64,000 bases of DNA from an uncultured Alphaproteobacteria bacterium (GTDB lineage Bacteria > Pseudomonadota > Alphaproteobacteria > Acetobacterales > Acetobacteraceae). Each line of letters begins with the position of its first letter. The stretch's first letter is position 1. Shown in pieces: positions 2,897 through 57,924 of the stretch. The position numbers and the translations under genes are program-made. Where the stretch lies: positions 21,993 through 85,992 of the forward strand of contig CAVXNH010000073.1 of assembly GCA_963762885.1 (NCBI GenBank). Reading direction: 5' to 3'. Below the pieces are notes generated by a model, which had not been told where the DNA came from, ran no database searches, and worked only from the letters and a program-made list of their open reading frames with translations.

Positions 2897-4984
2897 GTGC
2901 CCGCCACGCCGCTCGACAAGATTCGTAACATCGGGATCACCGCGCACATCGATGCCGGGAAGACGACGACAACGGAGCGCATCCTCTATTACACGGGCGT
3001 GTCGCATCGGATCGGCGAGGTGCACGACGGCAACACCACGACCGATTACATGGAGCAGGAGCGGGAGCGGGGGATCACGATCACCTCCGCGGCGGTGACG
3101 TGCGAGTGGAAGGACCACCGCATCAACATCATCGACACGCCCGGCCATATCGACTTCAACATCGAGGTGAACCGCAGCCTGCGCGTGCTGGACGGCGCGA
3201 TCTTCATCATCGAGGGCGTCGCCGGCGTGCAGCCGCAGTCGGAGACCAACTGGCGGCTGGCCGACCGGTACAACGTGCCGCGCATCATCTTCATCAACAA
3301 GCTGGACCGCACCGGGGCCGACTTCTTCCGCGCGTTCGCCACGCTGAAGGAGAAGCTCGACATCGTCGCCCTGCCGCTGCAACTGCCGATCGGCATCGAG
3401 GACAAGTTCATCGGCGTGGTGGACCTGCTCGAGATGCACGCGGTGATCTGGGACGGCAGCGAGTTGGGCGCGAGCTTCCATATCGAACCGATCCCGGCCG
3501 ACCTGATCGAACAGGCGAAGGAATACCGCCAGCTTCTGCTGGACACCGCGCTGTCGGTCGATGACGCGGGCATGGAAGAGTATTTCGAGCATGGCGACGT
3601 CGCGGTCGAGACGCTGAAGCGCTGCATCAAGACCGGCACCATCTCCGGCGCGTTCCGCCCGGTGCTGTGCGGCACCGCATTCAAGAACAAGGGCGTCCAG
3701 CCGCTGCTGGACGCGGTGGTGGACTACCTGCCCTCGCCGATCGACGTGCCGGGCATCAGCATCGCCGCGGCCGAGGGCGAGGAGGATGGCGAGCATTCCG
3801 ATCGCCGGCGCATCAAGGCTGACCCGAACGCACCATTCGCTGGGCTGGCGTTCAAGATCATCAACGACAAGTACGGCACGCTGACCTTCGTGCGGGTCTA
3901 TGCCGGCACGCTGAAGTCTGGCGACACGGTGCTGAACACCACGCGCGACCATCGCGAGCGCATCGGCCGGATGTTCCAGATGCACGCCGACAAGCGCGCC
4001 GAGATCAAGGAAGTGCATGCCGGCGACATCGCCGCCTTCGTCGGGCTGAAGGATACCGGCACGGGCGACACGCTGGCGAGCCGCAGGACCCGGTGGTGCT
4101 GGAGCGGATGGCCTTCCCGGTGCCGGTGATCGACATCTCGGTCGAGCCGCGCACGAAGGAAGCGGTGGAGAAGATGTCGCTGGGCCTGCAGAAGCTGGCG
4201 GGCGAGGACCCCTCGCTGCGGCTGCGGACCGACCAGGAGACCGGGCAGACCATCCTGTCCGGCATGGGCGAGCTGCACCTGGAGATCATCATCGACCGGC
4301 TGCGCCGCGAGTACGGCGTGGACGCGAATATCGGCGCTCCGCAGGTGGCATATCGCGAGACGATCACGCGGCCGCACACCGAGACCTACACCCACAAGAA
4401 GCAGACCGGTGGGTCGGGCCAGTACGCCGAGGTGAAGATCGTGTTCGAGCCGCAGGCGCGCAACGCCGGCGTGCTGTTCGAGAACAAGGTGGTCGGCGGC
4501 ACGGTGCCGAAGGAATACATCCCGGCGGTGGAGAAGGGGATCAAGGTGCAGGCGGAGACCGGCGTGCTGGCCGGCTTCCCGACGGTGGACTTCAAATACA
4601 CGCTGATCGACGGCAAATACCACGACGTCGACTCGTCGGCGCTGGCGTTCGAGATCGCCGCCAAGGCGTGCTTCCGCGACGGCATGAAGAAGGCGTCGCC
4701 GATCATCCTGGAGCCGATCATGGACGTGGAAGTGACCACGCCGCAGGATCACGTGGGCGACGTGGTGGGCGACCTGAACCGGCGGCGCGGGGATGATCCA
4801 GAACCAGGAGAGCTCCGGGTCCACGATTATCGTCCGGGCGCATGTTCCTCTTAAGGAAATGTTTGGATATATTTCCGATCTTAGGAGCATGACCAAGGGG
4901 CGGGCGTCGTTCACCATGCAGTTCCACCACTACGACCCGGTGCCTCGGAACATCGCGGACGAGATCATGGCGAAGACCGCATGA
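2897..4984 (+). pseudogene. fusA: Elongation factor G paralogue; two frameshifts as assembled
   Basis: AGGAGG 7 nt before GTG 2897. GTPase motifs [14 protein letters not shown] and NKLD are present. Three ORF pieces (2897-4129, 4093-4854, 4793-4984) join into one EF-G. The shifts lie at CC 4081-4082 and G4 4789-4792. No rpsG or tuf neighbours. Confidence 0.85.
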
Positions 4985-21069: not shown

Positions 21070-24000
21070 ATGACCGAGACGACCACCGTGACAGTGTTGT
21101 TCACCGATGTCGTCGGTTCGGTCGGCATGCGTCAGCACCAGGGTGAAGCAGCCGCCCACGCGATCATGAACACGCACAACGATCTGGTGCGGCAGCAACT
21201 CGCGCAACATGCCGGCCGCGAGGTCAAGACGATCGGCGACAGTTTCATGGTGGCGTTCGACTCCGCGCGCAAGGCCGTCGAGTGCGCCATCGGCATTCAA
21301 CGCGCGCTGCACGACTACAATCACCAGCATCCGGTCCATGCCGTGAAAGTGCGTATCGGAATTCACACCGGCGAAGCGATCCTCGTCGGCGACGATCTGT
21401 TCGGCACCAGCGTTGACGCCGCGGCGCGCATTATGGCCCGGGCCGAGGGCGAGCAAATCCTGGTCTCGGACGTGGTGAAAACCGTCCTTGGCGCGTCGAA
21501 GGATGTCGTATTTGGCGCTCAGACGCGGGTCCGCCTGAAGGGATTTCCCGAGCGCTGGCGCCTGTGGGAGGTGGCATGGCGCCCTGAGCCCGTACCGATC
21601 CAGCCGACCATCCCCGAGATCCCCACCGCCATCCCCAGCGCCGCCGCGACCACCACCGGCAACGTCAGCGGCATCGAAGCGCCGTTCGGCATGGGCCGCA
21701 CGCCCTACATCGGCCGCTCGGAGGAAAGGTCGCTGTTGCGCCAGGCGGTGGACCGCGCCATCGCCGGTAGCGGCGGCGTCGCGCTGATCGCCGGTGAGGC
21801 CGGTCTCGGCAAGACGCGGCTGGTTGACGAGATCGCCGCCGAAGCGAAAGCCCGCGGCATGTTTGTCGTCCGCGGGCAGTGCTACGACATGGAAGGCGCG
21901 CCGCCCTACGTCCCGTTCGTGGAGGCCATCGAGTACGGCCTCACCGTGACGTCCCGCGACGTCTTCCGCACCGCGATGGGCGTTGCCGGACCCGAGATCG
22001 CCCGCTTCGTTCCGAAAGTGCATCTCGCCTTTCCCGACCTTCCCCCGCCTTTGGCGCTGCCGACCGATCAGGCCCGGCACTACATGTTCGAGAGCGTGTG
22101 CGATTTCTGCCAGCGTGCGGCGGCAATTTAACCCATGCTCATGGTGCTGGAAGACCTGCACTGGGCGGACGAGTCCACGACGCAACTGCTTGAAAGTGTA
22201 GCGCGCCGGGCCGGGCGCGCGGCAATGCTGGTGGTCGGAACATATCGCGATGTCGACCTCGGACCAAAGGATCCGTTCACGCGGGGTATCGAGCATCTGT
22301 CCCGGCTCCAGGCGGTATCGCGCATCACGCTCAAGCGTCTGAGCGCCGTCGACGTCGCCGCCATGCTGCGTGCGCTGTCCGGCCAGGAACCGCCCGAACG
22401 CCTGGTCCGCCTGATCTACAGCGAGACCGAAGGCGTGCCGTTCTTCGTGGAGGAGGTCTATCGCCACCTCGCCGAAGAGCAAAGATTGACCGATGCAGAG
22501 GGCAAATGGCTGCCGCAGGTCGAGATCGGCGAAATCGAGGTGCCGGAAACGATCCGGCTCGTACTCGGACGCCGCATCGACCGCACCAGCGATGTTGCGC
22601 AACGCATCCTGACAACGGCCGCATGCGTCGGCCGGACCTTCACGTTCGAATTCCTGTCAGCTCTTGCGCAGGAGACCGAGGACGATTTGCTCGACGCCCT
22701 GGACGAAGCCGAACGCGCGCGGCTGTTGATCGCCGAAAGCGGACGGCATCCCCGCTTCGTTTTCGCCCACGAACAGATCCGCCAGACATTGCTCGGCCGG
22801 ATGTCGTTCGTGCGGCGGCAACGCCTGCACCGCCGTGTCGCCGACACGATCGAAGCGCAGCATTCCGGACATCTCGATGAGTATGTCAGCGATCTTGCCT
22901 ATCACCTGGCGCAGGCCGGCGCGCGCGAGCGGGCGGCGAACTACCTGAACCAGGCCGGCGCCGCGGCAGCGTCCCGCCTCGCGACGCCCGAAGCCCTGAC
23001 GCTGTTCGCACGCGCGGCCGAATTGGCAGATGCAGGGCCCACCCGGCGTGGCGCATTGCGCGCGCGCGGCGAACTGTTGCTCGGATTGTTCCGCGGCCGC
23101 GAGGCTGCGTCCGACCTGGAAGCCGCGGTCAGCGAGGCGGCGAAGGAGGGCGCCACCGCCGAGGAGATGGAGGCTCTGCTGCGGCTCGGACGCGCCTATT
23201 ACGTGGTGGGATTGGACCACCGCCCGGCGATCGCCCAATCGCTGGAAGTGCTTGAACGGGCGCTCCGGCTCGCCGTCCAGCTCGGCGACCGGCACGGCGA
23301 GGCGCGCGCGCTGATCCCGATGCACCGATTTGTCGATTTCAACCCTGATTTACGGGCACGCGCGACCGAAAGCGCCAATCGAGCCTTGTCGATCGCCCGC
23401 GATCTGGGCGACGAGGACCTGGAGGTCGACGCATTGCGGGCCACGTCGCGGATGGCAACGGCCGCGGTCCGCCGCGACAGTGCAGAGCATATCGCGAACG
23501 CTTTGGAGCGTCGCGGCGACCTGATCGCGCTCAACGAACATCTGTTTGATTCGATGTGGGCCTACTGGCGCGCGGCGGACTTCAATGACTGTGTCGCGTG
23601 CAGCGAACGCGCGACGGCCCTGGCCGTCCGGCTCGGCATTCCGCCGGTGCAGTATGGCACCATCCGGTCGTTCGCCCTGGTTGATCAAGGCCGCTTCGAC
23701 GCGGCATGGCAGGCGCTGGAACAGGAAGTGGCGGACGAAGATCATCCGTTCGGCCAGGCTTTCCAACGGCTCGGGCAGACGTTCTGGCATGCGGCGGCCG
23801 GCGACTTCGACCGCGTCTTGCACGAAGTTCCTCGCATCTACGCCGAAGCCAAAGCGTTGCAGCGGACCTGGATGATTCCGTGGGCCGATAATCTGCTGGC
23901 GTTCGCGATCATGGCCACCCATCCCGCAGGAACCAGCGAGGCGACGCTTCGTCAGGCGATCGAGGCTGCCGGCGGACGTCTGGTAGATGAGGCGCCGATG

Positions 24001-24390
24001 GCCGCGCTGCTCCTCGCCGGCAACGCTGACGCGGCGCTCGCAGCATGTGTGCGGCGGCTTCCACAGCTTGAGGCTGAGGGACTGACACGCGCGTATTGGA
24101 TCACCGAGGAACTGCGGGTCCGCGCATTGCTCGCCCTCGGCCGGTTCGCCGAAGTCCGTGAGGCGGCCGACGCGGCACTCACCGTTGTAGAAAGCTTCGG
24201 CTGGGGCTCGCTTGCGTGGCGGCTGCGTGCCTCGCTGGTGGCCGCATTGGATGAGCTTGGCGACGAGCGGGCCGTGACGGAACGCCGGATGGCGATCGAC
24301 CGGCTGATGGCGGTCGCCGATACTTTGAATGGCACCCCGGCCCGCTCCCGTTTCCTGTCGCAGCGTGAAGCGGCCGACCTGCTCGAGTGA
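21070..24390 (+). pseudogene. Class III adenylate/guanylate cyclase + P-loop NTPase (AAA_16-like) + TPR-like protein, interrupted by an in-frame TAA
   Basis: Cyclase domain: VTVLFTDVVGS...KTIGDSFMVAF...RIGIHTGEA. Walker A GEAGLGKTRL. TAA at 22129-22131 in the same frame, followed by Walker B-like MLMVLEDLHWADEST and a ~700-aa helical repeat region. Confidence 0.85.
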
Positions 24391-47723: not shown

Positions 47724-50700
47724 TCAGGCAACACGGCGCTCGGCAGCGTCGGCCAGGTAGCTGGTTCTGCCGCCGACGTGCAGCACCAGCTCCATCGCTC
47801 CATCGAAGCCATCGAACAAAGTTGGCGACAGGGTCGCGTTGCCATCGGTCCAGCGCAAGCCGTCCGCCACCTCGAACGCATGGAACCCCTCGATCAGCCG
47901 CGCGTCCTCCGCCTCCACCACGCGGAACCGTGCTCCCTGGCGCAGCGCGATGCACCGCAGTGCCACCCCGAGTGAACGCGGATCGCGCGCCATACCCAGT
48001 TCCGCCGGCGTGCCAGCCCGCGACATCACGCTCACGCAGCCATGTGCATCCGGCAGAGCGAAGACCTGTGCCGTGCCATGGCGCGAAGACGCATCGATCC
48101 GCTCGCCGTCCACCAGCAGATGCAGATCGGGATCCTCGGTAAGCGATTGTCCGGGTCGAGGGCCGGCACGGTCCATCAGGTGCGTCCAGGCCGCATCGAC
48201 GATCGGCCCACCGGTCAGCACCGGCGCGCACGTCGCCTGCGGCGGCTGGTCCCAGGCGCTATTGGCGTTCTGGAACAACCAGCGATTGCCATCGTCGCGG
48301 TAGCTCTCTGCCGGCGCCCCGTTCGCCACCATCACGTCGTGGCGGTCCAACTCGACATGGTACAGCGAGACCTCCTGCGCGCGGTCGTCCCACAGGATCG
48401 AGCGGTGATTGACCAGGAACTCCACCGGGATCAGCACGCCGTCCAGATACAGCGAGTGTCCCTTGGTCACGTGCAGGTCGCGCGCCGGCACGTTGTCCGC
48501 CAGTGCGTTCTTGCGCACGATGACCGGCGTCGCCGCGCTGCGCCGGCCGCGCGTCGCCAGCACCCTGCCGACACCGATCCAGGTGATCGGGCGCGTGCCG
48601 CCATCCCAGGTCAGCACCGTATCGCCAACGGCCAAACGCTCGACCGGCACTTCGCCGCCGGGCGTGCGGATCAGCGAACCCGCGCAGAAACACAGCTCGT
48701 TGGTGTCCACGAAGTCCGCCGTCGTCAGTGTCGTACCCGCGGCGACATCGACCGTCAGCGTGCCCACGGTGTTGCCGTTCTGGATCACCGACACGATCGA
48801 GCCGTCGATGCTGAACGTCGCCGCCCCGTCGGTGTCCACCGCGATCCTGTCGCCGGCCGTGAAGTTCGCGATCACCCCGTTGAAATTGTCGATCGACGGA
48901 GTGCCGTAATTGGTGTTCGTGCTCGTGACGAAGCTGGTCCCGCTGTCCGGCGTGTCGATCGTCTGCAACGCGTCGATGCCGATCGTCAGCTTGTCGTCGC
49001 TGCCCAGCGTGAAGGTCTGCCCGCTGACCGTGCCGGCGTTCAGGGTCAGGCTGTCGTTGGAGCCGAGGCTGAACGAGCCGCCGCCGGAGATGATCGGCGT
49101 ATCGAAGGTCAGCGTATGGCTGTTGGGAATGACCAACTCGCCGGAGTTGAACAGATACGCGGCGAGTTGATCGACGCCGGTGGCGCCGATCGGCAGCGGG
49201 TTGCTGTCGGCGTTGCTGAGAAAGGGCGACGGATCGGCGAAGCTGTTGATGGCGCCGGAGGAGTCGGGGCCGAAACTGATGCCGCCGTTGTTCTGGATGT
49301 AGTCGACGCCGTAGCCGATATTGAGCACGCCGAAGCCGTTGAAGCCGACCCAGATGTTGCCGTCGAAGGTGATGGTGCCGGTGGTGTCCTCGATGTCGAC
49401 GTTGCCGGTGCCGCTGCCGGCGTTGGCGATGTTGAGGTCGCCGCCGATGGTGACGTTGGCGCCGTTGAGGATGGAGAGCTCGCCGGAGCCTGAGTTGCCG
49501 ACCGAGACGGTGCCGGTCGTGGTGAGATCGGCGTTGGGGCCAGAGACGGTGACGATGCCGGCGCCGGTCGCGCCGACGCCGTCGTCGAGCGTGGCGGCGG
49601 AGACCGTGGCGCCGCTGGTGATCGCAAGCAATCCGGTGGCGGCGTTCCCGACGTCCAGCGCGCCGGTGACGTCCCACGCGGAGGACTCCCCGCTGACATT
49701 GACCGAGGACCCGTCGGAGCCGACCTGGTTGGCGATGACGGCGCCCGGCAGCCCGGTGGTGCCCGGATCGGTCTCGACCGCCGCACCGGACTGGATAGCG
49801 AGGCTGCCGAGCCCGGCATCGCCCACGACGAACTGGCCGGTGTTGGACAGCAACGAGAGGCCGCTGACCGTGGCATCGCCCTCGCTGCCGGCGGCTACGG
49901 CAATATCGAAACCCTGAGACGGTGGCGCCGTGTTGCCGCCGGTAAACACCGTGGCCTGGTCTTCGATGCGCAGATGACCGTCACCGCCGTCGCCGACCTC
50001 GATGCCGCCGCCCGCGTTGACGACCGACGCCGCACCCGTCACCGTCAACGAGCCGTCGCCGCCGGCGTCGACACCCAGGATATCGACCGCGGCATCAGTC
50101 ACGGTTGCCCCGTCGGCGACGGTCATTTCGCCCGTGCCGCCGCCGCCGATCTGTAGCGAACCGTCGGCGCCGGTATTCTGGATCACCGTATCGCCGCCAG
50201 CTTCCCACAGGTATCCGCTGTCGCCGGTTACTGCTCCGACCGACACGCCCTCGGCATTGATCGTCGCTCCGCTCTCGACGAGCATGGTCGCGTCGGAGGT
50301 CGAATCGACGTCGATGCTGCCGGACGCATCGATCGTTGAAGCGATGACGGTCAGGTTGCCGGAGTCGGTGATCGCCAGCGGATCGCCCTCACCGGCGAGC
50401 GTCAGCACCGCGCCGTTTTGCAGCACCCACTCGCCCGTTCCGCTGAACACGGCGTTCATGCCGGTGGCGGCGCCGGTCATGATGCCGGCGGTTGGCAGGT
50501 TGAATGTCAGTGTCTCGTGCGCATCGGGCACCGTGACCGGCTGCCAGTCGCCAGAGGTGCCGAGGCCCGTGCCGTCCGCGCCGGTCCAGGTCAGGTCCGT
50601 GATGGCTGCGCCGCCGAGCAGAACGCCGTCTTCGAACCCGTCGCCGCTGGTGCTCGTCACCAAGGTCTGGGTGACGGACACCCGCTCCCCGTTGGTTCCG

Positions 50701-53700
50701 GCGCCCAGGTCCAGTACCCGGTTCTGGAAGTAGTCCTGCGCCGCACTCAGTGTGGTGAACGTCGGGGGGGCGGCCATCTGCGTGCCGCCGACAGTCACGG
50801 TAAAGGTCAGCGAGGTGAACCCGCCGCCATAAGCATTGTTGCCTACAAGGCCGAGGAGCAGGTCTGCGGTCGGGCCATTCAGCGTGAAGCTGTCGGTGCT
50901 GGTCAGGGTCTCCTGCCCGCTCGCGCCGGTGGTCGCGTAGCCGCCTTGCATGCCGTAGCCCAGGATCGTCGCATTCGGCACCCCGAGCTGCGCCTCGATC
51001 GCCGGGTCGGGCTCGCCGGAGAAGACACCGGTGCCGTTCAGGATGCTGCCGAGCTGGCCGCTGTTCGACGCCAACACCCCCACGGCTGCGTAGACGCTGT
51101 TTTGCGCCTCATTGGAGCCAGGTTCCCCCCAGAAATCGGCACTGAGGCTGTTGATGTTGGCGCTGCTGACCGCCGTCACATAGCTGCCCGCGGTCGCGTC
51201 GGCCGTTGCCTCGTCCCCGCTCACCCCGCCGGTGCCGCCCGACGTGCTCGCCGTCGACTTTGCCTCGTTGTCGATTTCGGTACCGCCGGAGGCAATCGAC
51301 GTCGCCGTGGCCTGCTGCCCCGCCGCCGTGATGGCCGTGGATGTGGCATCCGCCTTGCCCTTCGCCGCACCCGAGCCGCCGCCGATGGCGTCCGAGACGG
51401 CGGTGGCGGCGCCAGTGGCGATGGCGTCCGTGCCGGAGGTCGCTGTGCCCGTGGCGATGGCCGTGGCATTTCCGTTCTCGCCGGTGGTCAAGCCCGCGCC
51501 GCCGGCGCCGCCGAACGCGGTCGCCTTGGAGGTCACCGCCGTCGCACCCGTCATGTCGCTGGTGGCTTTGCCGTCGGCGCCGTTCGCGCCCGCGGAGCCG
51601 GCGACGAGGGCGCCGCCCACGTACGAGTTGCCGCCGGCGCCTGCATCACCGATGGCGTAACCGGTCAACGAGCTGGCCTGCGTCGGATTGTTGTCGTCAT
51701 TGAAGTCAAGAATTGAGGTGGCTTTCCCACCGGTCCCGCCAGCGCCGGTTGTGCTGCCGCCACCCGCGCCGCCGTTCGCCCTCTGCGTGAGCGTCAGGGA
51801 GCCTCCGTACGGAGCATCATTGACCGTATGCGTTCTGCCGGTCGCGTCATCCTTCAGGTAACTGTACGCGCCGCTGCCGCCGCTCGCGCTCTTGTTCGTG
51901 CCGTCCACGTTTGAGCCGATGCCGCCGGCACCGCCGTACTGGAGGACGCGGGCATAGGCCGAATAGCCGCTCGCGTAAGCGGTGGTGAGACCAGCCCCAT
52001 CGATCCCGCCGGCGTTACCGAACCCGCCGCCGGCGCCGGCCTGCTGCCCGTACGTGTTGGAATTCCCGCCGGTACCGCCGAATGCCTCGCCACGAGCAAC
52101 CGTCCTGCCGCCGGCTCCCTGTCCCGTCGCGATTGCCGAGGCGGTGGCCTGGGTCGCTGCTCCGCCCTGGCTGCCGCTCGTGCCAAGCGCGGCCGTGTTG
52201 CTGCCGCCCATACCGCCGTTCGCGGCGGCCCCGCTCACGACATAGTCGCTCCCCGTCGTTGTGCTGGTCGCCTTCGAGGTCGCGATCGCGGCGCCGCCGG
52301 CAGCGGTTGGACCCGTGCCGTTGCCGGTGGAGCCGCCCGCTCCGCCGGTGGCGGTGGCCGAAAGATCGACGGCGAGATTGCCGGTCAGGTTCAGGTAAGC
52401 CGATGCGGCGCCGCCCACCACGCCGGCGGTTGCGCCGCCGACGCCGTCGACGCCGCCGCCAGCCCCACCCGTGGCGGTGACGGTGCCGGTTACCTGGCTC
52501 GCGTCCGTATATGTGAAGGGTCCGAGATATGAACTCGCGGTTCCCGCGGCTCCGGCGGTGCCGCCATCGCTGTTGCCGCCCGCGCCGCCGATTGCGGTCT
52601 GCGACAGGGTTAGATTTCCGCCATACGTCCGGCCGACGACCTGGTCGTTCAGCGTGCTGCTCGCACCTTTGCCGGCGGTGCCGTAATCGCCGGCACCGTT
52701 GCCGCTGGTCCCGCCCGCGCCGCCTAGCTGCATGATGCTCGCGCTGGCCGAATACCCGATCGCCGTCGCCTTCTCGATGCCACCGAACGTGCCACCCGCG
52801 CCGCCATGCGTGCTGCTGCCGCCGTTGACGTCACCGCCCCCCGCCCCGCTGTTCACATCCACGGCCGCGTTCGCCAGGCCGCCGATCCTCGGGTTGGTCT
52901 GGGTCGCCACCGCGGTCGCGCCGGTGACCGCGCCGCCCGCCCCTCCGTTGCCGTTCGCGCTGGAGCCACCGCCGTTCGCGGCGTACACGGTGGTGCCGGC
53001 GGTCACGCCGTCGCCCGCGGTCGTCGTGCTGGTCGCCGAGCTGGTCGCGTAAACCGTGCCGGCCGCCGCCCCGTTGCCGCTACCGAACGCACTGCCGCCG
53101 GCTCCGCCGTGGTCGGTCGCCCCCGCGTACGCCTCGGCTTTGACCGCATGGGGGCCGGTCACATTGACCGTCGCATAGGCATTCGCGCCGATGGCGGCAA
53201 TGCCGGTGCCGCCGGAGGAGCCGCCAGACCCGCCGACCGCGGTGCTGCTGCCCCTTACGTACACGGTACCCGGAGTGGTGGTGCTAAACGTAAGATACGA
53301 TTTGCCGTAGCCGGCCGCCCCGCCCGAACCGTCGCTACCGCCGCCGCCGTTGCCGCCGTCCGCCGCCTGGCCGAGATAAAGGTTTCCGTCGGTGGCCGAG
53401 CCGGTGACCCCGTTAACCAGCTTGCTGTGAGCGCCTGCGCCACCCGCGGCCCCTACCCCACTGCCACCGCCGCCCGAGCCGCCGTATTGAAATGCCGAAG
53501 CAAAGGCGGACAAGCCGATCGCATCGACCGCTTGCTCGGTTGGCTGGCCGACAGTCAGCGACTGCGTGCCGATGGTCGCGTAACCGCCGTTGCCGCCCTT
53601 TTGGCCGGCGCCATAGCCGCCGCCGCCGACGCCACCCGTGGCAGTGGCTTTGGCCCGCGCCTGGCCCGACGGATTATTCGCATAGGCCGATGCGACACCG

Positions 53701-54344
53701 CTGCCGCCCGCGCCGCCGCTGTCCCCCTTACCGACGCTGCTCGTGCCAGTGCTTCCGGGAAGGCCTGCCTCACCGCTGTACCCGCCAGTGCCGGCCGCAT
53801 AGGCAAAAGCGATGGGCGGAGGCGGGGTGACCGTCGTGGGGACTGTGGTGTTCGTATAGGCGTAGCCCGCGCCACCTTGCCCGCTGGCGCCCCCGGCGCC
53901 GCCGGTTCCTCCATGCGGCGGGGTATAACCCTCACCGCCGCCGTTGCCGATGCCGCCGGTCACGTTGGTGGCGTTGTTGAAATCGCCGGGGAACGTCGCG
54001 GTGTCGCCGGTGTTCCTGAAGCTCGCGAGAGCGCCTGGCCCGCCTGGCCCCCCATTTGGATTGGCGCCCGTCGTCGCGTTGAACGGAGCCGTGCCCGTGG
54101 CACCGGTGACCGTTACGGTATAGTGACGTGGCGCCTGCTGATTTTTGTGTGCCGGACAATGGATCCTCCAATGAAGCAGCGCGGCCGCGCCCTCTGGAGG
54201 GGTTCGCGTCGAACGTCTTCTCTTGAGACAACGATAGCGGCGCCGCGACGCCTCTGCGTGGCGGTCATCGACTTCAATCGATGCACCAGATACGCCTGAT
54301 TTTATGCGATGGAAACTAAAAAATAATCTTTCGGCCAAAAGCAC
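47724..54344 (-). CDS. Giant (2206 aa) glycine-rich / beta-helix-repeat protein with a C-terminal Hint (bacterial intein-like) domain
   Basis: Uninterrupted 6.6-kb ORF. Residues ~90-1040 are Gly/Ala/Thr/Ser-rich modules. Residues ~1250-1880 are passenger-like repeats (GxLxIxxGAxV...VG..G.G). Hint begins at Cys1885 (CFCAGSLIRTPGGEVPVERLAVGDTVLT...VTKGHSLYLDG...VMVANGAPAES). The start is uncertain (GTG 54344 / TTG 54338) and there is no signal peptide. Confidence 0.85.
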   Translation of the reverse strand: MLLAERLFFSFHRIKSGVSGASIEVDDRHAEASRRRYRCLKRRRSTRTPPEGAAALLHWRIHCPAHKNQQAPRHYTVTVTGATGTAPFNATTGANPNGGPGGPGALASFRNTGDTATFPGDFNNATNVTGGIGNGGGEGYTPPHGGTGGAGGASGQGGAGYAYTNTTVPTTVTPPPPIAFAYAAGTGGYSGEAGLPGSTGTSSVGKGDSGGAGGSGVASAYANNPSGQARAKATATGGVGGGGYGAGQKGGNGGYATIGTQSLTVGQPTEQAVDAIGLSAFASAFQYGGSGGGGSGVGAAGGAGAHSKLVNGVTGSATDGNLYLGQAADGGNGGGGSDGSGGAAGYGKSYLTFSTTTPGTVYVRGSSTAVGGSGGSSGGTGIAAIGANAYATVNVTGPHAVKAEAYAGATDHGGAGGSAFGSGNGAAAGTVYATSSATSTTTAGDGVTAGTTVYAANGGGSSANGNGGAGGAVTGATAVATQTNPRIGGLANAAVDVNSGAGGGDVNGGSSTHGGAGGTFGGIEKATAIGYSASASIMQLGGAGGTSGNGAGDYGTAGKGASSTLNDQVVGRTYGGNLTLSQTAIGGAGGNSDGGTAGAAGTASSYLGPFTYTDASQVTGTVTATGGAGGGVDGVGGATAGVVGGAASAYLNLTGNLAVDLSATATGGAGGSTGNGTGPTAAGGAAIATSKATSTTTGSDYVVSGAAANGGMGGSNTAALGTSGSQGGAATQATASAIATGQGAGGRTVARGEAFGGTGGNSNTYGQQAGAGGGFGNAGGIDGAGLTTAYASGYSAYARVLQYGGAGGIGSNVDGTNKSASGGSGAYSYLKDDATGRTHTVNDAPYGGSLTLTQRANGGAGGGSTTGAGGTGGKATSILDFNDDNNPTQASSLTGYAIGDAGAGGNSYVGGALVAGSAGANGADGKATSDMTGATAVTSKATAFGGAGGAGLTTGENGNATAIATGTATSGTDAIATGAATAVSDAIGGGSGAAKGKADATSTAITAAGQQATATSIASGGTEIDNEAKSTASTSGGTGGVSGDEATADATAGSYVTAVSSANINSLSADFWGEPGSNEAQNSVYAAVGVLASNSGQLGSILNGTGVFSGEPDPAIEAQLGVPNATILGYGMQGGYATTGASGQETLTSTDSFTLNGPTADLLLGLVGNNAYGGGFTSLTFTVTVGGTQMAAPPTFTTLSAAQDYFQNRVLDLGAGTNGERVSVTQTLVTSTSGDGFEDGVLLGGAAITDLTWTGADGTGLGTSGDWQPVTVPDAHETLTFNLPTAGIMTGAATGMNAVFSGTGEWVLQNGAVLTLAGEGDPLAITDSGNLTVIASTIDASGSIDVDSTSDATMLVESGATINAEGVSVGAVTGDSGYLWEAGGDTVIQNTGADGSLQIGGGGTGEMTVADGATVTDAAVDILGVDAGGDGSLTVTGAASVVNAGGGIEVGDGGDGHLRIEDQATVFTGGNTAPPSQGFDIAVAAGSEGDATVSGLSLLSNTGQFVVGDAGLGSLAIQSGAAVETDPGTTGLPGAVIANQVGSDGSSVNVSGESSAWDVTGALDVGNAATGLLAITSGATVSAATLDDGVGATGAGIVTVSGPNADLTTTGTVSVGNSGSGELSILNGANVTIGGDLNIANAGSGTGNVDIEDTTGTITFDGNIWVGFNGFGVLNIGYGVDYIQNNGGISFGPDSSGAINSFADPSPFLSNADSNPLPIGATGVDQLAAYLFNSGELVIPNSHTLTFDTPIISGGGSFSLGSNDSLTLNAGTVSGQTFTLGSDDKLTIGIDALQTIDTPDSGTSFVTSTNTNYGTPSIDNFNGVIANFTAGDRIAVDTDGAATFSIDGSIVSVIQNGNTVGTLTVDVAAGTTLTTADFVDTNELCFCAGSLIRTPGGEVPVERLAVGDTVLTWDGGTRPITWIGVGRVLATRGRRSAATPVIVRKNALADNVPARDLHVTKGHSLYLDGVLIPVEFLVNHRSILWDDRAQEVSLYHVELDRHDVMVANGAPAESYRDDGNRWLFQNANSAWDQPPQATCAPVLTGGPIVDAAWTHLMDRAGPRPGQSLTEDPDLHLLVDGERIDASSRHGTAQVFALPDAHGCVSVMSRAGTPAELGMARDPRSLGVALRCIALRQGARFRVVEAEDARLIEGFHAFEVADGLRWTDGNATLSPTLFDGFDGAMELVLHVGGRTSYLADAAERRVA
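48303..48692 (-). other. Hint / bacterial intein-like (BIL) domain of the giant protein (residues ~1885-2014)
   Basis: The N-terminal nucleophile Cys codon lies at 48690-48692. The block pattern C-F-x-x-G-[ST]-x-I-x-T-x-x-G-x-x-x-V-E-x-L-x-x-G-D-x-V-x-T is typical of Hint_2-type domains. Confidence 0.7.
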
Positions 54345-54377: not shown

Positions 54378-54664
54378 TGATTTTCGCCGCAATATTTTGG
54401 CCCAACGCATACATTTTCTGCAATGTATTTGGTGTTTTCGGTCGATTTACGGCAGTTTAACATGTTGATATTTATAGTGGATTATACCGTCACCACAACG
54501 GGCGTGCCACGCGGTCCGAAAGCCGTGATGGCCCCAGCCCTCTTGCCCGAAGGCAGTACATCGGCCGCACGTCCGAACAGCCGTGTCCGCCACCCCCGGC
54601 GGCGCTTGCGCGGCCGGCGGCATCCATGCGAAGGGCCAACCCTCCCTCAACGGGTCAGGATATA

Positions 54665-55492
54665 ATGGACAACGGCGTACACTTCATTTCCGGCCTGCCA
54701 CGCTCCGGCAGTACGCTGCTGGCTGGCATCTTGCGGCAGAATCCCCGGTTCCATGCCGGTATGACCAGCCCGGTCGGCTCGATGTACATGGCTCTCGAAA
54801 CCGCGATGAGCCGACGCAACGAGGCCGCGGTGTTTATCGACGACGTCCAGCGGCGCGCCGTGCTGAAGGGGCTATTTTCTAACTATTACGCAACGATCCA
54901 CCCGGAAAAGCTGGTGTTCGACACCAACCGCGCCTGGTGCACCAAATTGCCCGCCCTGGTGCAGCTTTTCCCCGCCGCCCGCATCATCTGCTGCGTGCGC
55001 AACATCGGCTGGATCATGGACTCGATCGAACGCCTGGTGCGCCGCAATGCTTTCGAACTGTCCGGGATGTTCGGCTTCGAGGCGGGCTTCACCGTCTATT
55101 CCCGCGTCAACCGCCTGGCCAGCAGCGACGGTCTGGTGGGGTATGCGCTGGATGCGCTGCGGGAGGCGTTCTTTGGCGAGCAAGCGCCCCGGCTGATCCT
55201 GGTGGAATACCAGGCGTTGACGCGCGCCCCGCGGGACACGATGCGTCACCTCTACGCCATGCTCGAAGAGCAGAATTTCGAGCATGATTTCGAAAATGTG
55301 GATTACCAGGCGGAGGATTTCGATAGTGCTCTGGGTGCCCGAGGTCTGCACACTGTCCGTCGCCGCGTAGAGTGGGTAGAACGGCAGAGCGTGCTACCGC
55401 CCGGTTTGTTCGAGCGTTTCTCGCAGGACATGTTCTGGCGGGTGCCCGACGCGAATATCCGCAACTTACCGATCATCCAGTTCGGCGGCTGA
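54665..55492 (+). CDS. Sulfotransferase-family protein (NodH-like)
   Basis: PAPS 5'-phosphosulfate-binding loop ISGLPRSGSTLL near the N-terminus; 275 aa. Confidence 0.7.
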   Translation: MDNGVHFISGLPRSGSTLLAGILRQNPRFHAGMTSPVGSMYMALETAMSRRNEAAVFIDDVQRRAVLKGLFSNYYATIHPEKLVFDTNRAWCTKLPALVQLFPAARIICCVRNIGWIMDSIERLVRRNAFELSGMFGFEAGFTVYSRVNRLASSDGLVGYALDALREAFFGEQAPRLILVEYQALTRAPRDTMRHLYAMLEEQNFEHDFENVDYQAEDFDSALGARGLHTVRRRVEWVERQSVLPPGLFERFSQDMFWRVPDANIRNLPIIQFGG

Positions 55493-56307: not shown

Positions 56308-56469
56308 GGGTAATCCTCTCTGGGGCAGCGCCGGCAGTTGCCGGTGGTGACGAACGCGTTTATGGCACGGTCCCCCACCATGGCGATGCGGTCCTGCCAA
56401 ACCACGGCCGGCCGCCCGGAACAAGGATCGGCAAACTTGCGGAGCAGGCTATCGGTCCCGGCGCGGGGC

Positions 56470-57911
56470 ATGCGCGCTAGTCTAGCGGTTTGGCGCGCGT
56501 TCGTCCTGTCGGCACTCACGCTGGGTAACGCGGCCTGCGGCTCGATGCCGAATCTGAACCCGTTCGCCGGCCCGACGGCGCCGCCGGAGGGTCAGCAGGG
56601 GCACGTCCAGGGCTTCCTGGGCGGGGTGGTCGCCGACGAGCCACGCGCCGCGCTGACGGGGCGGGAGGCGCTGTCGGCCGGCGGCAACGCGGCGGACGCC
56701 GCGGTGGCCATGGGGTTCGCGCTCTCGGTTACGCTCCCCTCGCGCGCCGGCCTGGGTGCCGGCGGTGCCTGTCTGGCCTATGCCGCCGACAAGAAGTCGA
56801 TCAATGGCGGCGTGCCGGAGGCGGTGCTGTTCACGCCGACCGCCCCCCCAGTGCCGGGCCGAACGCCGACCGGCCGGCAGCGATGCCGATGCTGCCGCGC
56901 GGCCTTTACCTTCTCAGCGCGCGCTATGGCCACCGGCCGTTCGAGAGCCTGGTGGTGCCGGCGGAGCGGTTTGCCCGGTTCGGTGTGGCGACGTCGCGCG
57001 CGCTGGCGACGGACCTGGCCGTGGTCGCCGGCCCGTTGATGGCCGATCCGGGTGCTGCCGCGGTGTTCAGCCATAATGGCGTGCCGTTGCGCGACGGCGA
57101 CCCGCTGGTGCAACTCGACCTCGCCGCGACCCTGTCGCAGCTTCGGGTGGCGGGAGTCGGAGACTTGTACCAGGGCTCGCTGGCCCGGCGGCTGGAGCAG
57201 CAGTCGCCACTGGTGGGAGGGCCGCTGTCGCTGAGCGACCTGCGGGGCGCGCTGCCGTCGCTAGCGCCGGCGCTGATCGTGCCGTGGCGCAGCGACCAGG
57301 TGGCGTTCCTGCCGCCGCCCGCGGATGGCGGGCTGGCGGCCGCGGCGGCGTTCGACACTTTGCAGCGGAGTCCGGGTGACTACAGCGGCGCCACGGCACG
57401 AGCCCTGTCAGTCGCGGCGCTCTGGCGGGCGGGTGGCGCGACGCCGGACTCATTGCTGAAGGACACCGCATTGCCTGCGGCCGGGCTGCCGCTGCTGCCG
57501 GCCTCCACGACCTGGGCGGCGCTGGATAAGGACGGCAATGCCGTCGTGTGTTCGGCTAGTCTGGACAATCTGTTCGGTACCGGACGCATCGTTCCCGGGC
57601 TGGGGTTCTTGCTCGCCGCCTCGCCGGCCAGCGTGCCGCTGCCGTTATTTTCCGCGGCGCTGGCCTGGAATGAGCACTTGAAGGCGTTCCGTGCCGCGGT
57701 CGGCGGCTCCGGCCAGGCGGGCGCGGCGGTGGCCACCGCCGCGGGGATGTTCAATACGCTGGTCACCGGCTTTGCGATGTCGACTCCGGTGCCCGACCCG
57801 GGCCGCGCCAACGTCATCGAGTGCGCCAGCTACCTGCCGGACCAGACCTCGAGCTGCCGCTGGGCGACCGACCCGCGCGGAGCCGGCCTGGCGGTGGGCA
57901 GCAGCAACTGA
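56470..57911 (+). pseudogene. ggt: Gamma-glutamyltransferase-family lipoprotein; frameshifted as assembled
   Basis: Lipobox [36 protein letters not shown]. The shift is inside the C7 run at 56843-56849. Continues ...[24 protein letters not shown]...LFGTGRIVPGLGFLL. Confidence 0.75.
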
Positions 57912-57924
57912 GCAGCGGGTCCGC

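What the first reader, a model, noticed from the sequence alone, without database searches (positions are those of the whole stretch)
47724..54344. Intact 2206-aa glycine-rich / beta-helix protein ending in a Hint (bacterial intein-like) autoprocessing domain
Seen in the sequence: one uninterrupted 6.6-kb ORF in four parts. (1) An odd, basic N-terminus without a signal peptide. (2) Residues ~90-1040: Gly/Ala/Thr/Ser-rich modules. (3) Residues ~1250-1880: repeats of the autotransporter-passenger / parallel beta-helix type (e.g. GSLTVTGAASVVNAGGGIEVGDGGDGHLRIEDQATV, GLLAITSGATVSAATLDDGVGATGAGIVTVSG, GELSILNGANVTIGGDLNIANAGSG). (4) At Cys1885 a Hint block, CFCAGSLIRTPGGEVPVERLAVGDTVLTWDGGTRPITWIG ... 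VTKGHSLYLDG ... VMVANGAPAES, followed by ~190 further residues. Established knowledge: Hint/BIL domains catalyse N-S acyl shift and peptide-bond cleavage, and in polymorphic toxin and surface proteins they release or ligate the flanking segments. Inference: this is a surface or secreted filament processed at Leu1884|Cys1885. No secretion system, chaperone or immunity gene is adjacent, so how it is exported and what it does are both open. I did not see RTX nonapeptides.
Basis: partly seen in the sequence, partly recalled or inferred. Interest (0 to 1): 0.8.

Follow-up and report, generated by a model that had tools for sequence, protein, structure and literature searches.

The report
Giant surface-type protein with self-cleaving Hint tail
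This is a real, very large gene for a glycine-rich, beta-helical, probably exported protein that ends in a self-cleaving Hint domain plus an uncharacterised C-terminal domain. It belongs to a large, shuffled and little-studied gene family of acid-soil Acetobacteraceae, so it is not a one-off oddity.

Summary
The 6.6-kb ORF (47724-54344, minus strand) is real. Residues 1885-2017 match Pfam Hint_2 (E 9.5e-39), with conserved Cys1885 and T1960-x-x-H1963, and the predicted fold matches BIL and intein structures.

- **C-terminal cassette.** The Hint domain and the ~190-aa domain after it form one conserved cassette. It always sits at the extreme C-terminus, in >2000 representative proteins, with many copies per genome (17 of the 80 best loci are from Acidisphaera sp. 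S103).
- **Passengers vary.** They are 137 to >2000 aa long and lack signal peptides.
- **Beta-helix part (1251-1884).** It consists of TIGR04393 "T5SS/PEP-CTERM-associated" repeats. Other proteins with these repeats end in an autotransporter barrel or a PEP-CTERM tag, so the Hint cassette occupies the position of a sorting module.
- **Recombination.** A 450-aa tract spanning stalk and Hint is 449/450 identical to another protein.
- **Not a polymorphic toxin.** The C-terminal domain is the conserved part.
- **N-terminus.** The "odd basic N-terminus" is probably translated leader. A conserved SD-TTG start lies one frame off, next to an A5 run.
- **Neighbour.** A sulfotransferase gene is a conserved neighbour.

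Cleavage, export route and function remain inferred.

The parts
47724..54344 (-). Whole ORF as it stands in the assembly (2206 codons plus stop)
   Evidence: GC3 is 0.83. The exact protein is in the public collection as a singleton cluster, P0001.
54160..54344 (-). Codons 1-61: the 'odd basic N-terminus', probably translated 5' leader and not protein
   Evidence: There is no Shine-Dalgarno sequence before GTG 54344, and no other in-frame start before codon 128. The homologue P0122 starts at a position aligning to about residue 76.
54481..54510 (-). Sigma-70-like promoter match (GTGGCA-18-TATAAT) in the AT-rich divergent intergenic region
   Evidence: This is a consensus match only.
54157..54169 (-). 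GGAGG Shine-Dalgarno (54169-54165) followed by TTG (54159-54157): the probable true start codon, in the +2 frame relative to the long ORF
   Evidence: The same TGGAG-N7-TTG arrangement is the start of the homologous gene in L001.
54142..54146 (-). A5 homopolymer, the candidate site of a 1-nt insertion. Removing one A joins the TTG start to the long frame and gives a 2144-aa protein starting MSGTQNQQAPRHYTVTV
   Evidence: The window contains other disrupted genes.
51225..54125 (-). Glycine/alanine/threonine-rich head (aa 74-1040): GGxGG motifs about every 41-43 aa and three ~260-aa super-repeats. This part is rare in the databases
   Evidence: Only 16 database relatives were found, and only P0122 is close. 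There is no Pfam, PHROGs or PDB match.
50595..51224 (-). Connector (aa 1041-1250), conserved with P0122
48693..50594 (-). Beta-helix-type stalk (aa 1251-1884) made of TIGR04393 T5SS/PEP-CTERM-associated repeats. It is very acidic (70 D+E against 3 K+R) and has no Cys
   Evidence: It is shared at 37-53% identity with other cassette proteins.
48267..49616 (-). Tract of aa 1577-2026 that is 449/450 identical to P0285 while both flanks diverge: a recent recombination or gene-conversion tract spanning the stalk and the Hint domain
48690..48692 (-). Codon of Cys1885, the predicted nucleophile. The predicted scissile bond is Leu1884|Cys1885
   Evidence: The -1 residue is L, V or I in 45 of 50 cassette ORFs.
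48294..48692 (-). Hint_2 domain (aa 1885-2017), including block B T1960-x-x-H1963 (48456-48467)
   Evidence: The AlphaFold model has a HINT fold that matches BIL and intein structures.
48273..48308 (-). ESYRDDGNRWLF (aa 2013-2024), the most conserved stretch of the cassette. It lies at the Hint/CTD junction and just inside the downstream edge (aa 2026) of the identical tract
47727..48293 (-). Conserved C-terminal domain (aa 2018-2206): a helix plus a beta-rich domain (about ten strands) with no recognisable relative among solved structures. In most of the 54 family tails listed the last residues are VA or AA
54626..55492 (+). Divergently transcribed Sulfotransfer_3 gene, a conserved neighbour of glycine-rich Hint proteins

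Best explanation
The gene encodes a Sec-independent, exported or surface-displayed fibre protein. It is a member of a large, multi-copy and recombining family found in Acetobacteraceae and more widely in Alphaproteobacteria.

The architecture is: rare glycine-rich head, then a beta-helical stalk of T5SS/PEP-CTERM-type repeats, then a conserved C-terminal cassette made of Hint_2 plus a ~190-aa beta-rich (probably beta-sandwich) domain.

The cassette is the family's common handling module. It stands where related passengers carry an autotransporter barrel or a PEP-CTERM tag, so it probably carries the export or sorting determinant.

Once folded, the Hint domain performs an N-to-S acyl shift at Leu1884|Cys1885, assisted by Thr1960 and His1963. 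The resulting thioester is resolved, most simply by hydrolysis. This detaches the ~1820-aa passenger from the ~320-aa cassette.

The most likely export route is a type I-like, C-terminal-signal pathway encoded elsewhere in the genome.

The neighbouring cytoplasmic sulfotransferase probably modifies the glycine-rich passenger, or a glycan on it, before export.

Shown: the anatomy, the conservation, the family structure and the recombination. Inferred: the cleavage, the export route, the modification and the adhesin-like role.
For: **Hint domain**
- Hint_2 matches at E 9.5e-39.
- The HINT fold is recovered in the model, and Foldseek hits BIL2 6y75, the C. thermocellum BIL 2lwy and class 3 inteins.
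- Cys1 is >=90% conserved and present in every junction inspected. His of TxxH is invariant and Thr is >=90% conserved.
- B-type BILs are reported to self-cleave at their N-terminus and to sit in hypervariable, non-conserved bacterial proteins (PMC7765530).

**Cassette**
- The top hits are 63-72% identical over ~97-100% of the 326-aa cassette, in >1249 proteins with unrelated N-termini.
- The CTD lies at the extreme C-terminus in all of the top 150 of 2296 representative hits, in proteins of 182-4131 aa.
- 261 cassette stretches were found among species-representative genomes. All 80 best loci have titles naming Acetobacteraceae genera or unclassified (alpha)proteobacterial MAGs, and 17 of them are from Acidisphaera sp. 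S103.
- Distant versions (31-41% identity, near full length among those listed) occur on 216 alphaproteobacterial plasmids.

**Position of a sorting module**
- TIGR04393 repeats are present.
- Relatives with the same repeats end in an autotransporter barrel (P0326) or a PEP-CTERM tag (P0316) and have signal peptides.
- 104 cassette proteins show no signal-peptide-like N-terminus: the median maximal hydropathy is 0.99, against 2.2-3.0 in the Sec-dependent relatives.
- The passenger is acidic and Cys-free, as is typical of one-step-secreted proteins (my own knowledge).

**Modularity**
- P0122 carries the same passenger type on a different, shorter Hint_2 tail.
- A 449/450-identical tract is shared with P0285.

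**Sulfotransferase**
- The orthologue in L001 is 86% identical, in the same divergent position, with no other synteny.
- A 51%-identical copy lies directly upstream of a glycine-rich cassette gene in L015.
- A glycine-rich relative, P0123, lies beside type I secretion genes and a sulfotransferase.
Against: - No cleavage, secretion or expression data exist for any member.
- There is no T1SS, TolC or other secretion gene in the window, and no conserved neighbour across 80 cassette loci.
- There are no RTX repeats.
- A type I substrate must stay unfolded in the cytoplasm. How premature Hint cleavage would be prevented is unexplained.
- The CTD has no recognisable fold relative, so its role as a sorting signal is argued from its position only.
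- As assembled, the conserved start codon is out of frame with the ORF. The window also holds genes with an in-frame stop and split ORFs, so this copy could be a recent pseudogene.
- The sulfotransferase link rests on three loci, and its substrate is unknown. The nearest solved relative is human TPST1 at only E 2.5e-4.
Confidence: 0.55

Rival explanations
1. Hedgehog-like ligation. The thioester formed at Leu1884 is not hydrolysed. It is attacked by a nucleophile selected by the conserved C-terminal domain, which would act as an 'adduct recognition region'. This would link the passenger's new C-terminus covalently to an envelope molecule (a lipid such as a hopanoid polyol, LPS or a polysaccharide), anchoring the fibre without a barrel or a sortase.
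For: - The architecture (Hint followed by a conserved C-terminal region) parallels the Hog domain, which is Hint plus a sterol-recognition region (PMC7765530).
- The CTD always accompanies this Hint subtype and has invariant charged residues: E2115, R2120, D2121, R2123 and E2158.
- The cassette replaces anchoring modules, namely the autotransporter barrel and PEP-CTERM.
- The residue at -1 is conserved and hydrophobic.
Against: - No structural or sequence similarity links the CTD to any lipid- or glycan-binding domain.
- The Hog catalytic Asp/His for nucleophile activation was not looked for.
- Other Hint_2 tails, such as that of P0122, lack this CTD yet carry the same passenger.
- No biochemical data exist.
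Confidence: 0.07
2. Polymorphic toxin. The filamentous N-terminal part delivers a C-terminal toxin domain (aa 2018-2206) that is released by the HINT peptidase.
For: HINT domains placed just before a C-terminal domain of 100-200 aa are the standard releasing peptidases of polymorphic toxins (PMC3482391).
Against: - The C-terminal domain is conserved, at ~55-65% identity, in thousands of proteins and in many paralogues per genome, while the N-terminal part is the variable one.
- There is no small immunity-like gene downstream and no conserved neighbour.
- N-terminal Hint cleavage would leave Hint attached to the CTD.
- There is no N-terminal trafficking domain and no signal peptide.
Confidence: 0.04
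3. This copy is a recently inactivated pseudogene. The 1-nt frame offset between the conserved SD-TTG start and the long ORF is real, so the protein is not made, or is made only at trace level from GTG 54344.
For: - The conserved start is out of frame.
- GTG 54344 has no ribosome-binding site.
- The window contains other broken genes: an in-frame TAA in a cyclase/AAA gene, a split EF-G-like gene and gamma-glutamyltranspeptidase fragments. An IS element is nearby.
Against: - 2144 codons downstream remain open with strong coding bias, GC3 0.83.
- The offset sits beside an A5 homopolymer, a classic consensus-error site.
- Many related genomes are long-read MAGs.
- A 450-aa tract is 449/450 identical to another gene, which argues against long decay.
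Confidence: 0.15
4. The Hint_2 domain no longer cleaves. It serves only as a folded structural or recognition module of the C-terminal cassette, for example as a plug or a docking domain.
For: No member has been assayed. There is no canonical C-terminal His-Asn motif.
Against: The nucleophile Cys and the TxxH motif are kept across highly divergent paralogues. That is hard to explain without catalysis. B-type BILs that also lack the C-terminal motif do cleave (PMC7765530).
Confidence: 0.1

Closest known systems
B-type bacterial intein-like (BIL) domains / Pfam Hint_2 proteins of Alphaproteobacteria (Amitai et al. 2003; Dassa et al. 2004, as summarised in PMC7765530)
   Same: - The domain family is the same (PF13403).
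- It has an N-terminal Cys and a TxxH block.
- It has no intein-type C-terminal His-Asn plus nucleophile.
- It sits in hypervariable, non-conserved, apparently extracellular proteins.
- N-terminal self-cleavage is expected.
   Different: - Here the Hint is fused to a conserved ~190-aa C-terminal beta-rich (probably beta-sandwich) domain that has no Pfam or NCBIfam model.
- The cassette is massively amplified (many copies per genome) in the Rhodopila/Acidisphaera lineage.
- This member carries an unusually large glycine-rich head.
- I could not compare it directly with the original B-type set.
Autotransporters and PEP-CTERM proteins with TIGR04393 repeats (e.g. P0326 from Hoeflea olei, P0316)
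   Same: The stalk (aa 1251-1884) is built of the same repeat (E 7.5e-35) and shows detectable homology.
   Different: Those proteins have Sec signal peptides and end in a beta-barrel or a PEP-CTERM tag. This one has no signal peptide and ends in Hint_2 plus the CTD.
Hedgehog C-terminal (Hog) autoprocessing domain
   Same: Both have a Hint module followed by a conserved C-terminal region. The N-terminal 'cargo' is released through a thioester at a Cys.
   Different: The CTD shows no similarity to the sterol-recognition region. This is a bacterial protein. Transfer to a nucleophile is not shown here.
HINT-containing polymorphic toxins (e.g. MafB, Rhs/CdiA-type; PMC3482391)
   Same: Both are long filamentous proteins with a HINT domain near the C-terminus.
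   Different: The polarity of variation is reversed: here the tail is conserved and the head is variable. There is no immunity gene and no recognised trafficking domain.
Type IX secretion C-terminal domains (a functional analogy only, from my own knowledge)
   Same: A conserved beta-sandwich at the extreme C-terminus is shared by many unrelated cargo proteins in one genome and is removed after export.
   Different: The phylum is different, there is no sequence or structure match, and removal here would be autocatalytic and not by a sortase-like PorU.

Membership tests
HINT superfamily / Pfam Hint_2 (PF13403) | Significant match to the family profile over its full length | tested here: met
   E 9.5e-39, 133.5 bits against a cut-off of 28.4; profile positions 2-145 of 147
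HINT superfamily / Pfam Hint_2 (PF13403) | Nucleophilic Cys/Ser as the first residue of the domain, conserved in homologues | tested here: met
   Cys1885. Cys is >=90% conserved in alignment A1. It is present in all 50 locus-encoded cassettes where the motif was found, and in 3 more by eye.
HINT superfamily / Pfam Hint_2 (PF13403) | Block B Thr-x-x-His | tested here: met
   T1960-K-G-H1963. His is invariant and Thr is >=90% conserved.
HINT superfamily / Pfam Hint_2 (PF13403) | HINT fold | tested here: met
   AlphaFold model of aa 1841-2206, with pLDDT mostly 71-96 (lowest 10-residue block 66) over the Hint part. Foldseek finds BIL2 6y75, BIL 2lwy and inteins at E 1e-4 to 1e-3, probability 1.00.
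HINT superfamily / Pfam Hint_2 (PF13403) | Autocatalytic N-S acyl shift and cleavage | not testable with these tools
   This needs biochemistry: wild type against C1885A.
B-type BIL domains | Intein motifs present except the C-terminal His-Asn plus downstream nucleophile | tested here: met
   The domain ends ...VANGAPAESYRD. The Asn of 'ANG' is replaced by Asp in P0004 and P0096, and there is no His-Asn. Description from PMC7765530.
B-type BIL domains | Location in variable regions of non-conserved, secreted-type bacterial proteins | tested here: met
   The passengers are unrelated and range from 137 to >2000 aa.
B-type BIL domains | Sequence clustering with the originally defined B-type set (Rhodobacter etc.) | not tested
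   The original sequences and papers are not held. The equivalence of Hint_2 and B-type BIL rests on my own knowledge.
Canonical inteins | C-terminal Asn plus a +1 Cys/Ser/Thr, insertion in a conserved host protein, and ligation of the exteins | tested here: not met
   There is no His-Asn and no conserved +1 nucleophile. The 'C-extein' is a conserved domain that travels with the Hint, and the 'N-extein' is hypervariable.
Polymorphic toxin systems | Variable C-terminal toxin domain on a conserved N-terminal part | tested here: not met
   The polarity is reversed.
Polymorphic toxin systems | Adjacent immunity gene | tested here: not met
   The sequence downstream is non-coding or a convergent monooxygenase gene. 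No recurrent neighbour was found in 80 loci.
Type V autotransporters | C-terminal outer-membrane beta-barrel and an N-terminal signal peptide | tested here: not met
   There is no PF03797 or TIGR01414 match and no signal peptide. Only the passenger repeat type is shared.
Type I secretion (RTX-type) substrates | GGxGxDxUx nonapeptide repeats | tested here: not met
   The pattern gave 0 matches, and there is no HemolysinCabind hit.
Type I secretion (RTX-type) substrates | Linked ABC transporter, membrane-fusion protein and TolC genes | tested here: not met
   None is in the window. They are present only beside the distant glycine-rich relative P0123.
Type I secretion (RTX-type) substrates | No signal peptide, an acidic Cys-free body and an uncleaved C-terminal signal | tested here: inconclusive
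   The first two features are met. A C-terminal signal cannot be recognised from sequence. Most of the 54 family tails listed end in VA or AA.
Hedgehog-type Hog domain | Transfer of the thioester to a small-molecule nucleophile recruited by the region C-terminal to Hint | not testable with these tools
   Only the architecture is parallel. The CTD fold has no informative match.

The most novel reading that the evidence does not exclude
The conserved Hint_2 plus C-terminal-domain cassette is a bacterial counterpart of the Hedgehog autoprocessing unit, used as a general, self-contained surface-anchoring device. After Sec-independent export, the C-terminal domain would recruit an envelope nucleophile such as a hopanoid polyol, a lipid or an LPS/EPS sugar. 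The Hint thioester at Leu1884 would then be resolved by that nucleophile. Any of the many different passengers per cell would thereby be tethered covalently, without a sortase, a barrel or an exosortase.
Probability: 0.07. Interest if true: 0.85.

Novelty: new variant of a known kind. Interest (0 to 1): 0.45.

Why it matters
The biological purpose of bacterial intein-like domains has been open since they were described. They are known to self-cleave in vitro, but why extracellular proteins carry them is unclear.

This locus belongs to a very large family in which the Hint domain and an unannotated C-terminal domain form one invariant cassette. The cassette is attached to many different signal-peptide-less passengers per genome. 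It stands where related passengers carry an autotransporter barrel or a PEP-CTERM tag.

That makes a concrete hypothesis testable in a cultured organism, Acidisphaera sp. S103, and in Gluconobacter, Acetobacter and Rhizobium plasmids. The hypothesis is that Hint plus CTD is an export or sorting-and-release (or anchoring) module.

The family also shows segmental recombination between paralogues and a repeated link to sulfo- and glycosyltransferase genes. Together these suggest a variable, post-translationally decorated cell surface in acid-soil and peat Acetobacteraceae.

For this particular gene, users of the annotation should know that the first ~61 residues are probably an artefact.

Tried and rejected
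- **NCBIfam on the full-length protein** gave nothing. The TIGR04393 repeats appeared only when aa 1251-1884 were scanned alone.
- **Sequence search of PDB** found no hit.
- **PHROGs on four passenger pieces** found no hit, so there is no evidence for a phage tail-fibre origin of the glycine-rich head.
- **Foldseek of the CTD alone** gave nothing significant: best E 0.018, TM <= 0.25.
- **Self-BLAST for internal repeats** was weak because of composition correction. The repeats were shown instead by motif spacing, autocorrelation and alignment of super-modules. The lag-43 autocorrelation of 0.154 is just below the 99th percentile (0.160) of the maxima from shuffled sequences.
- **Clustering of all flanking ORFs of 80 cassette loci** found no shared secretion or partner gene. 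The most frequent neighbours were an SDR-like protein (9 loci, not scanned), an ABC exporter (7), TPR-glycosyltransferase (5) and tail-collar proteins (4).
- **'Cassette-only' genes as silent donor cassettes.** I rejected this idea for P0041 and P0081. One is truncated by an IS, and the other follows fragmented upstream ORFs in a metagenome assembly.
- **C-terminal cleavage at the invariant Asn2020.** I considered this and did not adopt it, because other Hint_2 tails lack that Asn.
- **Exact-protein look-ups** of P0001, P0285 and P0096 returned nothing. The source record, and whether P0285 is from the same genome, could not be established.
- **Literature search for 'Hint_2'** returned only papers on the human HINT2 protein. 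The original BIL papers are not held.
- **tRNA and Rfam scans** of the window found nothing.

Full report
**1.

A 2206-codon ORF runs from 54344 to 47724 on the minus strand. Its third-position GC is 0.83 against 0.61 at second positions, which is the coding signature of this ~66% GC DNA. The identical protein is already in the public collection as a singleton cluster from a 108,305-bp contig.

Composition confirms the four parts:
- a basic 73-aa N-terminus;
- a head of G 27%, A 18%, T 13%, S 9% (aa 74-1040) with no Cys;
- a very acidic, Cys-free region (aa 1251-1884; 70 D+E against 3 K+R);
- a C-terminal ~320 aa of ordinary composition.

Pfam finds exactly one domain: Hint_2, aa 1885-2017, E 9.5e-39. 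Cys1885 is the first Cys of LCFCAGS. There is no RTX nonapeptide.

**2. The Hint domain looks catalytically competent**

In a 51-sequence alignment the Cys is >=90% conserved, the His of T1960-K-G-H1963 is invariant and the Thr is >=90% conserved. Among cassette ORFs recovered from 80 genomic loci, all 50 in which the junction motif was found have Cys, and three more that missed the search pattern also read CF or CY at the junction. The preceding residue is Leu, Val or Ile in 45 of the 50.

An AlphaFold model of aa 1841-2206 has mean pLDDT 78 and is mostly 71-96 (lowest 10-residue block 66) over the Hint part. By Foldseek it matches the Tetrahymena BIL2 domain, the C. thermocellum BIL and class 3 inteins at E 1e-4 to 1e-3.

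The domain has no intein-type C-terminal His-Asn. That fits the published description of B-type BILs: all intein motifs except the C-terminal one, N-terminal self-cleavage, and a location in hypervariable non-conserved proteins (PMC7765530). The equivalence of Hint_2 and B-type BIL is my own knowledge. I could not test it, because the original papers are not held.

**3. The last 326 residues are a cassette**

Searching aa 1881-2206 returned more than 1249 proteins. The listed top hits are 63-72% identical over ~97-100% of the query, and their N-terminal parts are unrelated (Calx-beta, Big, collagen-like, autotransporter-type strands).

The ~190 residues after Hint are therefore a conserved domain. 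A model of it alone (pLDDT 78) shows a helix followed by about ten strands. It has no significant structural relative in PDB: best E 0.018, TM <= 0.25. It has no Pfam or NCBIfam model.

A filter-free phmmer search of aa 2039-2206 against 1.84 billion representatives gave 2296 hits at E <= 1e-3. All of the 150 best carry the domain at their extreme C-terminus, in proteins of 182 to 4131 aa.

In species-representative genomes there are 261 confirmed cassette stretches. All 80 best loci have titles naming Acetobacteraceae genera (Acidisphaera, Rhodopila) or unclassified (alpha)proteobacterial MAGs, many from soil and peat. Seventeen of the 80 are from the isolate Acidisphaera sp. S103.

More distant versions, 31-41% identical and near full length among those listed, occur on 216 plasmids of Rhizobium, Sinorhizobium, Acetobacter, Gluconobacter, Paracoccus, Phaeobacter and others. 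The annotated ones listed are named 'Hint domain-containing protein', or in one case 'outer membrane protein'.

**4. The passenger**

Scanned on its own, aa 1251-1884 matches NCBIfam TIGR04393, the T5SS/PEP-CTERM-associated repeat, at E 7.5e-35 in six stretches.

Homologues of this stalk end in three alternative ways: Hint_2, an autotransporter barrel (P0326, Hoeflea olei) or a PEP-CTERM tag (P0316). The latter two kinds have classical signal peptides.

Cassette proteins do not. Among 104 of them, the maximal 12-residue hydropathy in the first 40 residues has a median of 0.99, against 2.2-3.0 for the Sec-dependent relatives. None looks like a signal peptide by eye.

This contrast is the strongest indirect argument that the Hint cassette stands in for a C-terminal sorting or translocation module and is tied to a Sec-independent route.

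The glycine-rich head is rare. It has only 16 database relatives, and the only close one is P0122 (1973 aa). The head carries GGxGG motifs about every 41-43 aa, and three ~260-aa super-repeats align convincingly. The lag-43 autocorrelation of 0.154 is just below the 99th percentile (0.160) of the maxima from shuffled sequences, so the periodicity rests mainly on the motif spacing and the alignment. The head matched nothing in Pfam, PHROGs or PDB.

**5. The family is mosaic**

P0122 has the same head, connector and stalk (44% identity overall, much higher from aa 1060 to 1465). It ends in a different, shorter Hint_2 tail that lacks the 190-aa domain.

Conversely, P0285 (808 aa) has an unrelated N-terminus but is 449/450 identical to the window protein from aa 1577 to 2026. 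That tract runs through the end of the stalk and the whole Hint domain. Beyond it, identity drops to ~65% in the C-terminal domain. The downstream breakpoint lies just after ESYRDDGNRWLF, the most conserved motif of the cassette.

This is a recent recombination or gene-conversion tract. Other cassette proteins share the stalk at 37-53% identity.

**6. The start of the gene**

There is no in-frame start codon between codons 3 and 128, and GTG 54344 has no ribosome-binding site. P0122 begins at a position that aligns to about residue 76. Its start is TGGAG-N7-TTG.

The window has the same arrangement, GGAGG at 54169-54165 and TTG at 54159-54157, but in the +2 frame. It is followed by an A5 run at 54146-54142. 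Deleting one A joins this start to the long frame and gives a 2144-aa protein beginning MSGTQNQQAPRHYTVTV.

So the 'odd, basic N-terminus' is most likely translated leader.

Whether the extra base is an assembly error or a real, very recent frameshift cannot be decided here. The window also contains:
- an EF-G-like gene split into overlapping ORFs;
- gamma-glutamyltranspeptidase fragments;
- a cyclase/AAA_16 gene with an in-frame TAA.

**7. Surroundings**

No secretion, chaperone or immunity gene lies within the 64 kb. Clustering of all flanking ORFs of the 80 cassette loci found no shared partner.

One neighbour is conserved, however. The divergent Sulfotransfer_3 gene at 54626-55492 has an 86%-identical orthologue in the same position next to P0122, while nothing else around the two genes is syntenic. 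That locus also holds a second TPR and sulfotransferase pair.

A 51%-identical copy sits directly upstream of another glycine-rich cassette gene in L015. A distant glycine-rich relative without Hint (P0123) lies beside type I secretion genes and a sulfotransferase.

Elsewhere, glycosyltransferases are adjacent to Hint proteins (G. oxydans H24 plasmid; TPR-GT genes) or fused to them (P0126).

The sulfotransferase's nearest solved relative is human tyrosylprotein sulfotransferase, but only at E 2.5e-4. Its substrate is therefore open.

**8. Most likely mechanism (inferred)**

The protein is made without a signal peptide. It may be sulfated or glycosylated in the cytoplasm. It is exported by a pathway that recognises the C-terminal cassette; type I-like secretion is the best guess, given the acidic Cys-free passenger and the absence of a signal peptide.

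Once the cassette folds, Cys1885 attacks the Leu1884 carbonyl. The thioester is resolved, and the ~1820-aa glycine-rich, beta-helical fibre is freed from the cassette.

Hydrolysis is the simplest outcome. A Hedgehog-like transfer to an envelope nucleophile chosen by the C-terminal domain is not excluded, and would be the most interesting outcome.

The polymorphic-toxin reading (PMC3482391) is disfavoured because the polarity of variation is reversed and no immunity gene exists.

**9. Verdict**

This is a new variant of a known kind: a Hint_2/BIL protein. The cassette, the family expansion, the mosaicism and the sulfotransferase link had not, as far as the held literature shows, been described.

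Interest is moderate. The finding sharpens an old open question, what BIL domains are for, into experiments that can be done in cultured strains. Every functional step is still inference.

Noticed in passing
window 54626-55492 (+); L001 6842-7669 and 16459-19067; L015 3174-3989: A Sulfotransfer_3 gene is a conserved neighbour of glycine-rich Hint proteins. It is 86% identical next to P0122 with no other synteny, and 51% identical directly upstream of a glycine-rich cassette gene in L015. L001 has an additional TPR and sulfotransferase pair. The substrate is unknown; the nearest PDB relative is human TPST1 at E 2.5e-4.
   Followed up: partly
window 2897-4129 and 4093-4854 (+): An EF-G-like gene is split into two overlapping ORFs. 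The first carries GTP_EFTU and domain 2. The second carries domains III and IV and only the first 30 positions of EFG_C. This suggests frameshifts, from either assembly indels or a pseudogene.
   Followed up: no
window 22129-22131 (+), between ORFs 21070-22131 and 22135-24390: An in-frame TAA interrupts a large adenylate/guanylate-cyclase and AAA_16 gene. The reading frame continues ...PMLMVLEDL directly after the stop.
   Followed up: partly
window 56338-57911 (+): Gamma-glutamyltranspeptidase is present only as fragments in two frames (profile positions 2-47 and 84-246 of 512). It overlaps the start of an aminotransferase ORF at 57691-59181.
   Followed up: no
window 59572-60684 (+) and 60000-64000: There is an IS-type DDE transposase (DDE_Tnp_1 with DDE_Tnp_1_assoc). 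GC content falls to 0.56-0.59 at the right end of the window.
   Followed up: no
L001 20779-24410 (+): A second Hint protein lies in the P0122 locus. It is called as an 1110-aa AIDA-like ORF plus a separate 109-aa Hint_2 ORF that overlap, so it is apparently another split gene.
   Followed up: no
L015 1079-2883 (-); L020 534-1088 (-): Tandem phage-tail-collar-domain (PF07484) genes lie next to cassette genes: ten members in four loci. In L015 three of them precede the sulfotransferase and the glycine-rich Hint gene.
   Followed up: partly
L087 5330-9041 (+) (Gluconobacter oxydans H24 plasmid); P0126: A glycosyltransferase gene ends 4 nt before a Hint-cassette gene that is annotated 'outer membrane protein'. 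P0126 is a 1887-aa protein that has both Glyco_trans_1_4 and Hint_2 domains. TPR-GT9/GT41 genes recur near cassette genes (L068, L035).
   Followed up: partly
L002 1-2858 (-) and 18008-18880 (+): Type I secretion genes (a C39-peptidase ABC transporter in fragments, and an AprE/HlyD-type adaptor) and a sulfotransferase flank giant glycine-rich proteins that lack a Hint domain (P0123).
   Followed up: no
C-terminal tails of cassette proteins (window 47727-47770 and loci L004-L083): After a conserved Tyr, most family members have a ~10-residue variable tail that ends in -VA or -AA. The meaning is unknown; it could be a secretion signal or a protease-recognition tail.
   Followed up: no
L085 4311-5456 (-); L084 2919-5730 (+): Apparent 'cassette-only' genes (P0041 and P0081, which start 1-2 residues before the Cys) are remnants. 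One is cut by an IS transposase. The other follows fragmented upstream ORFs.
   Followed up: yes
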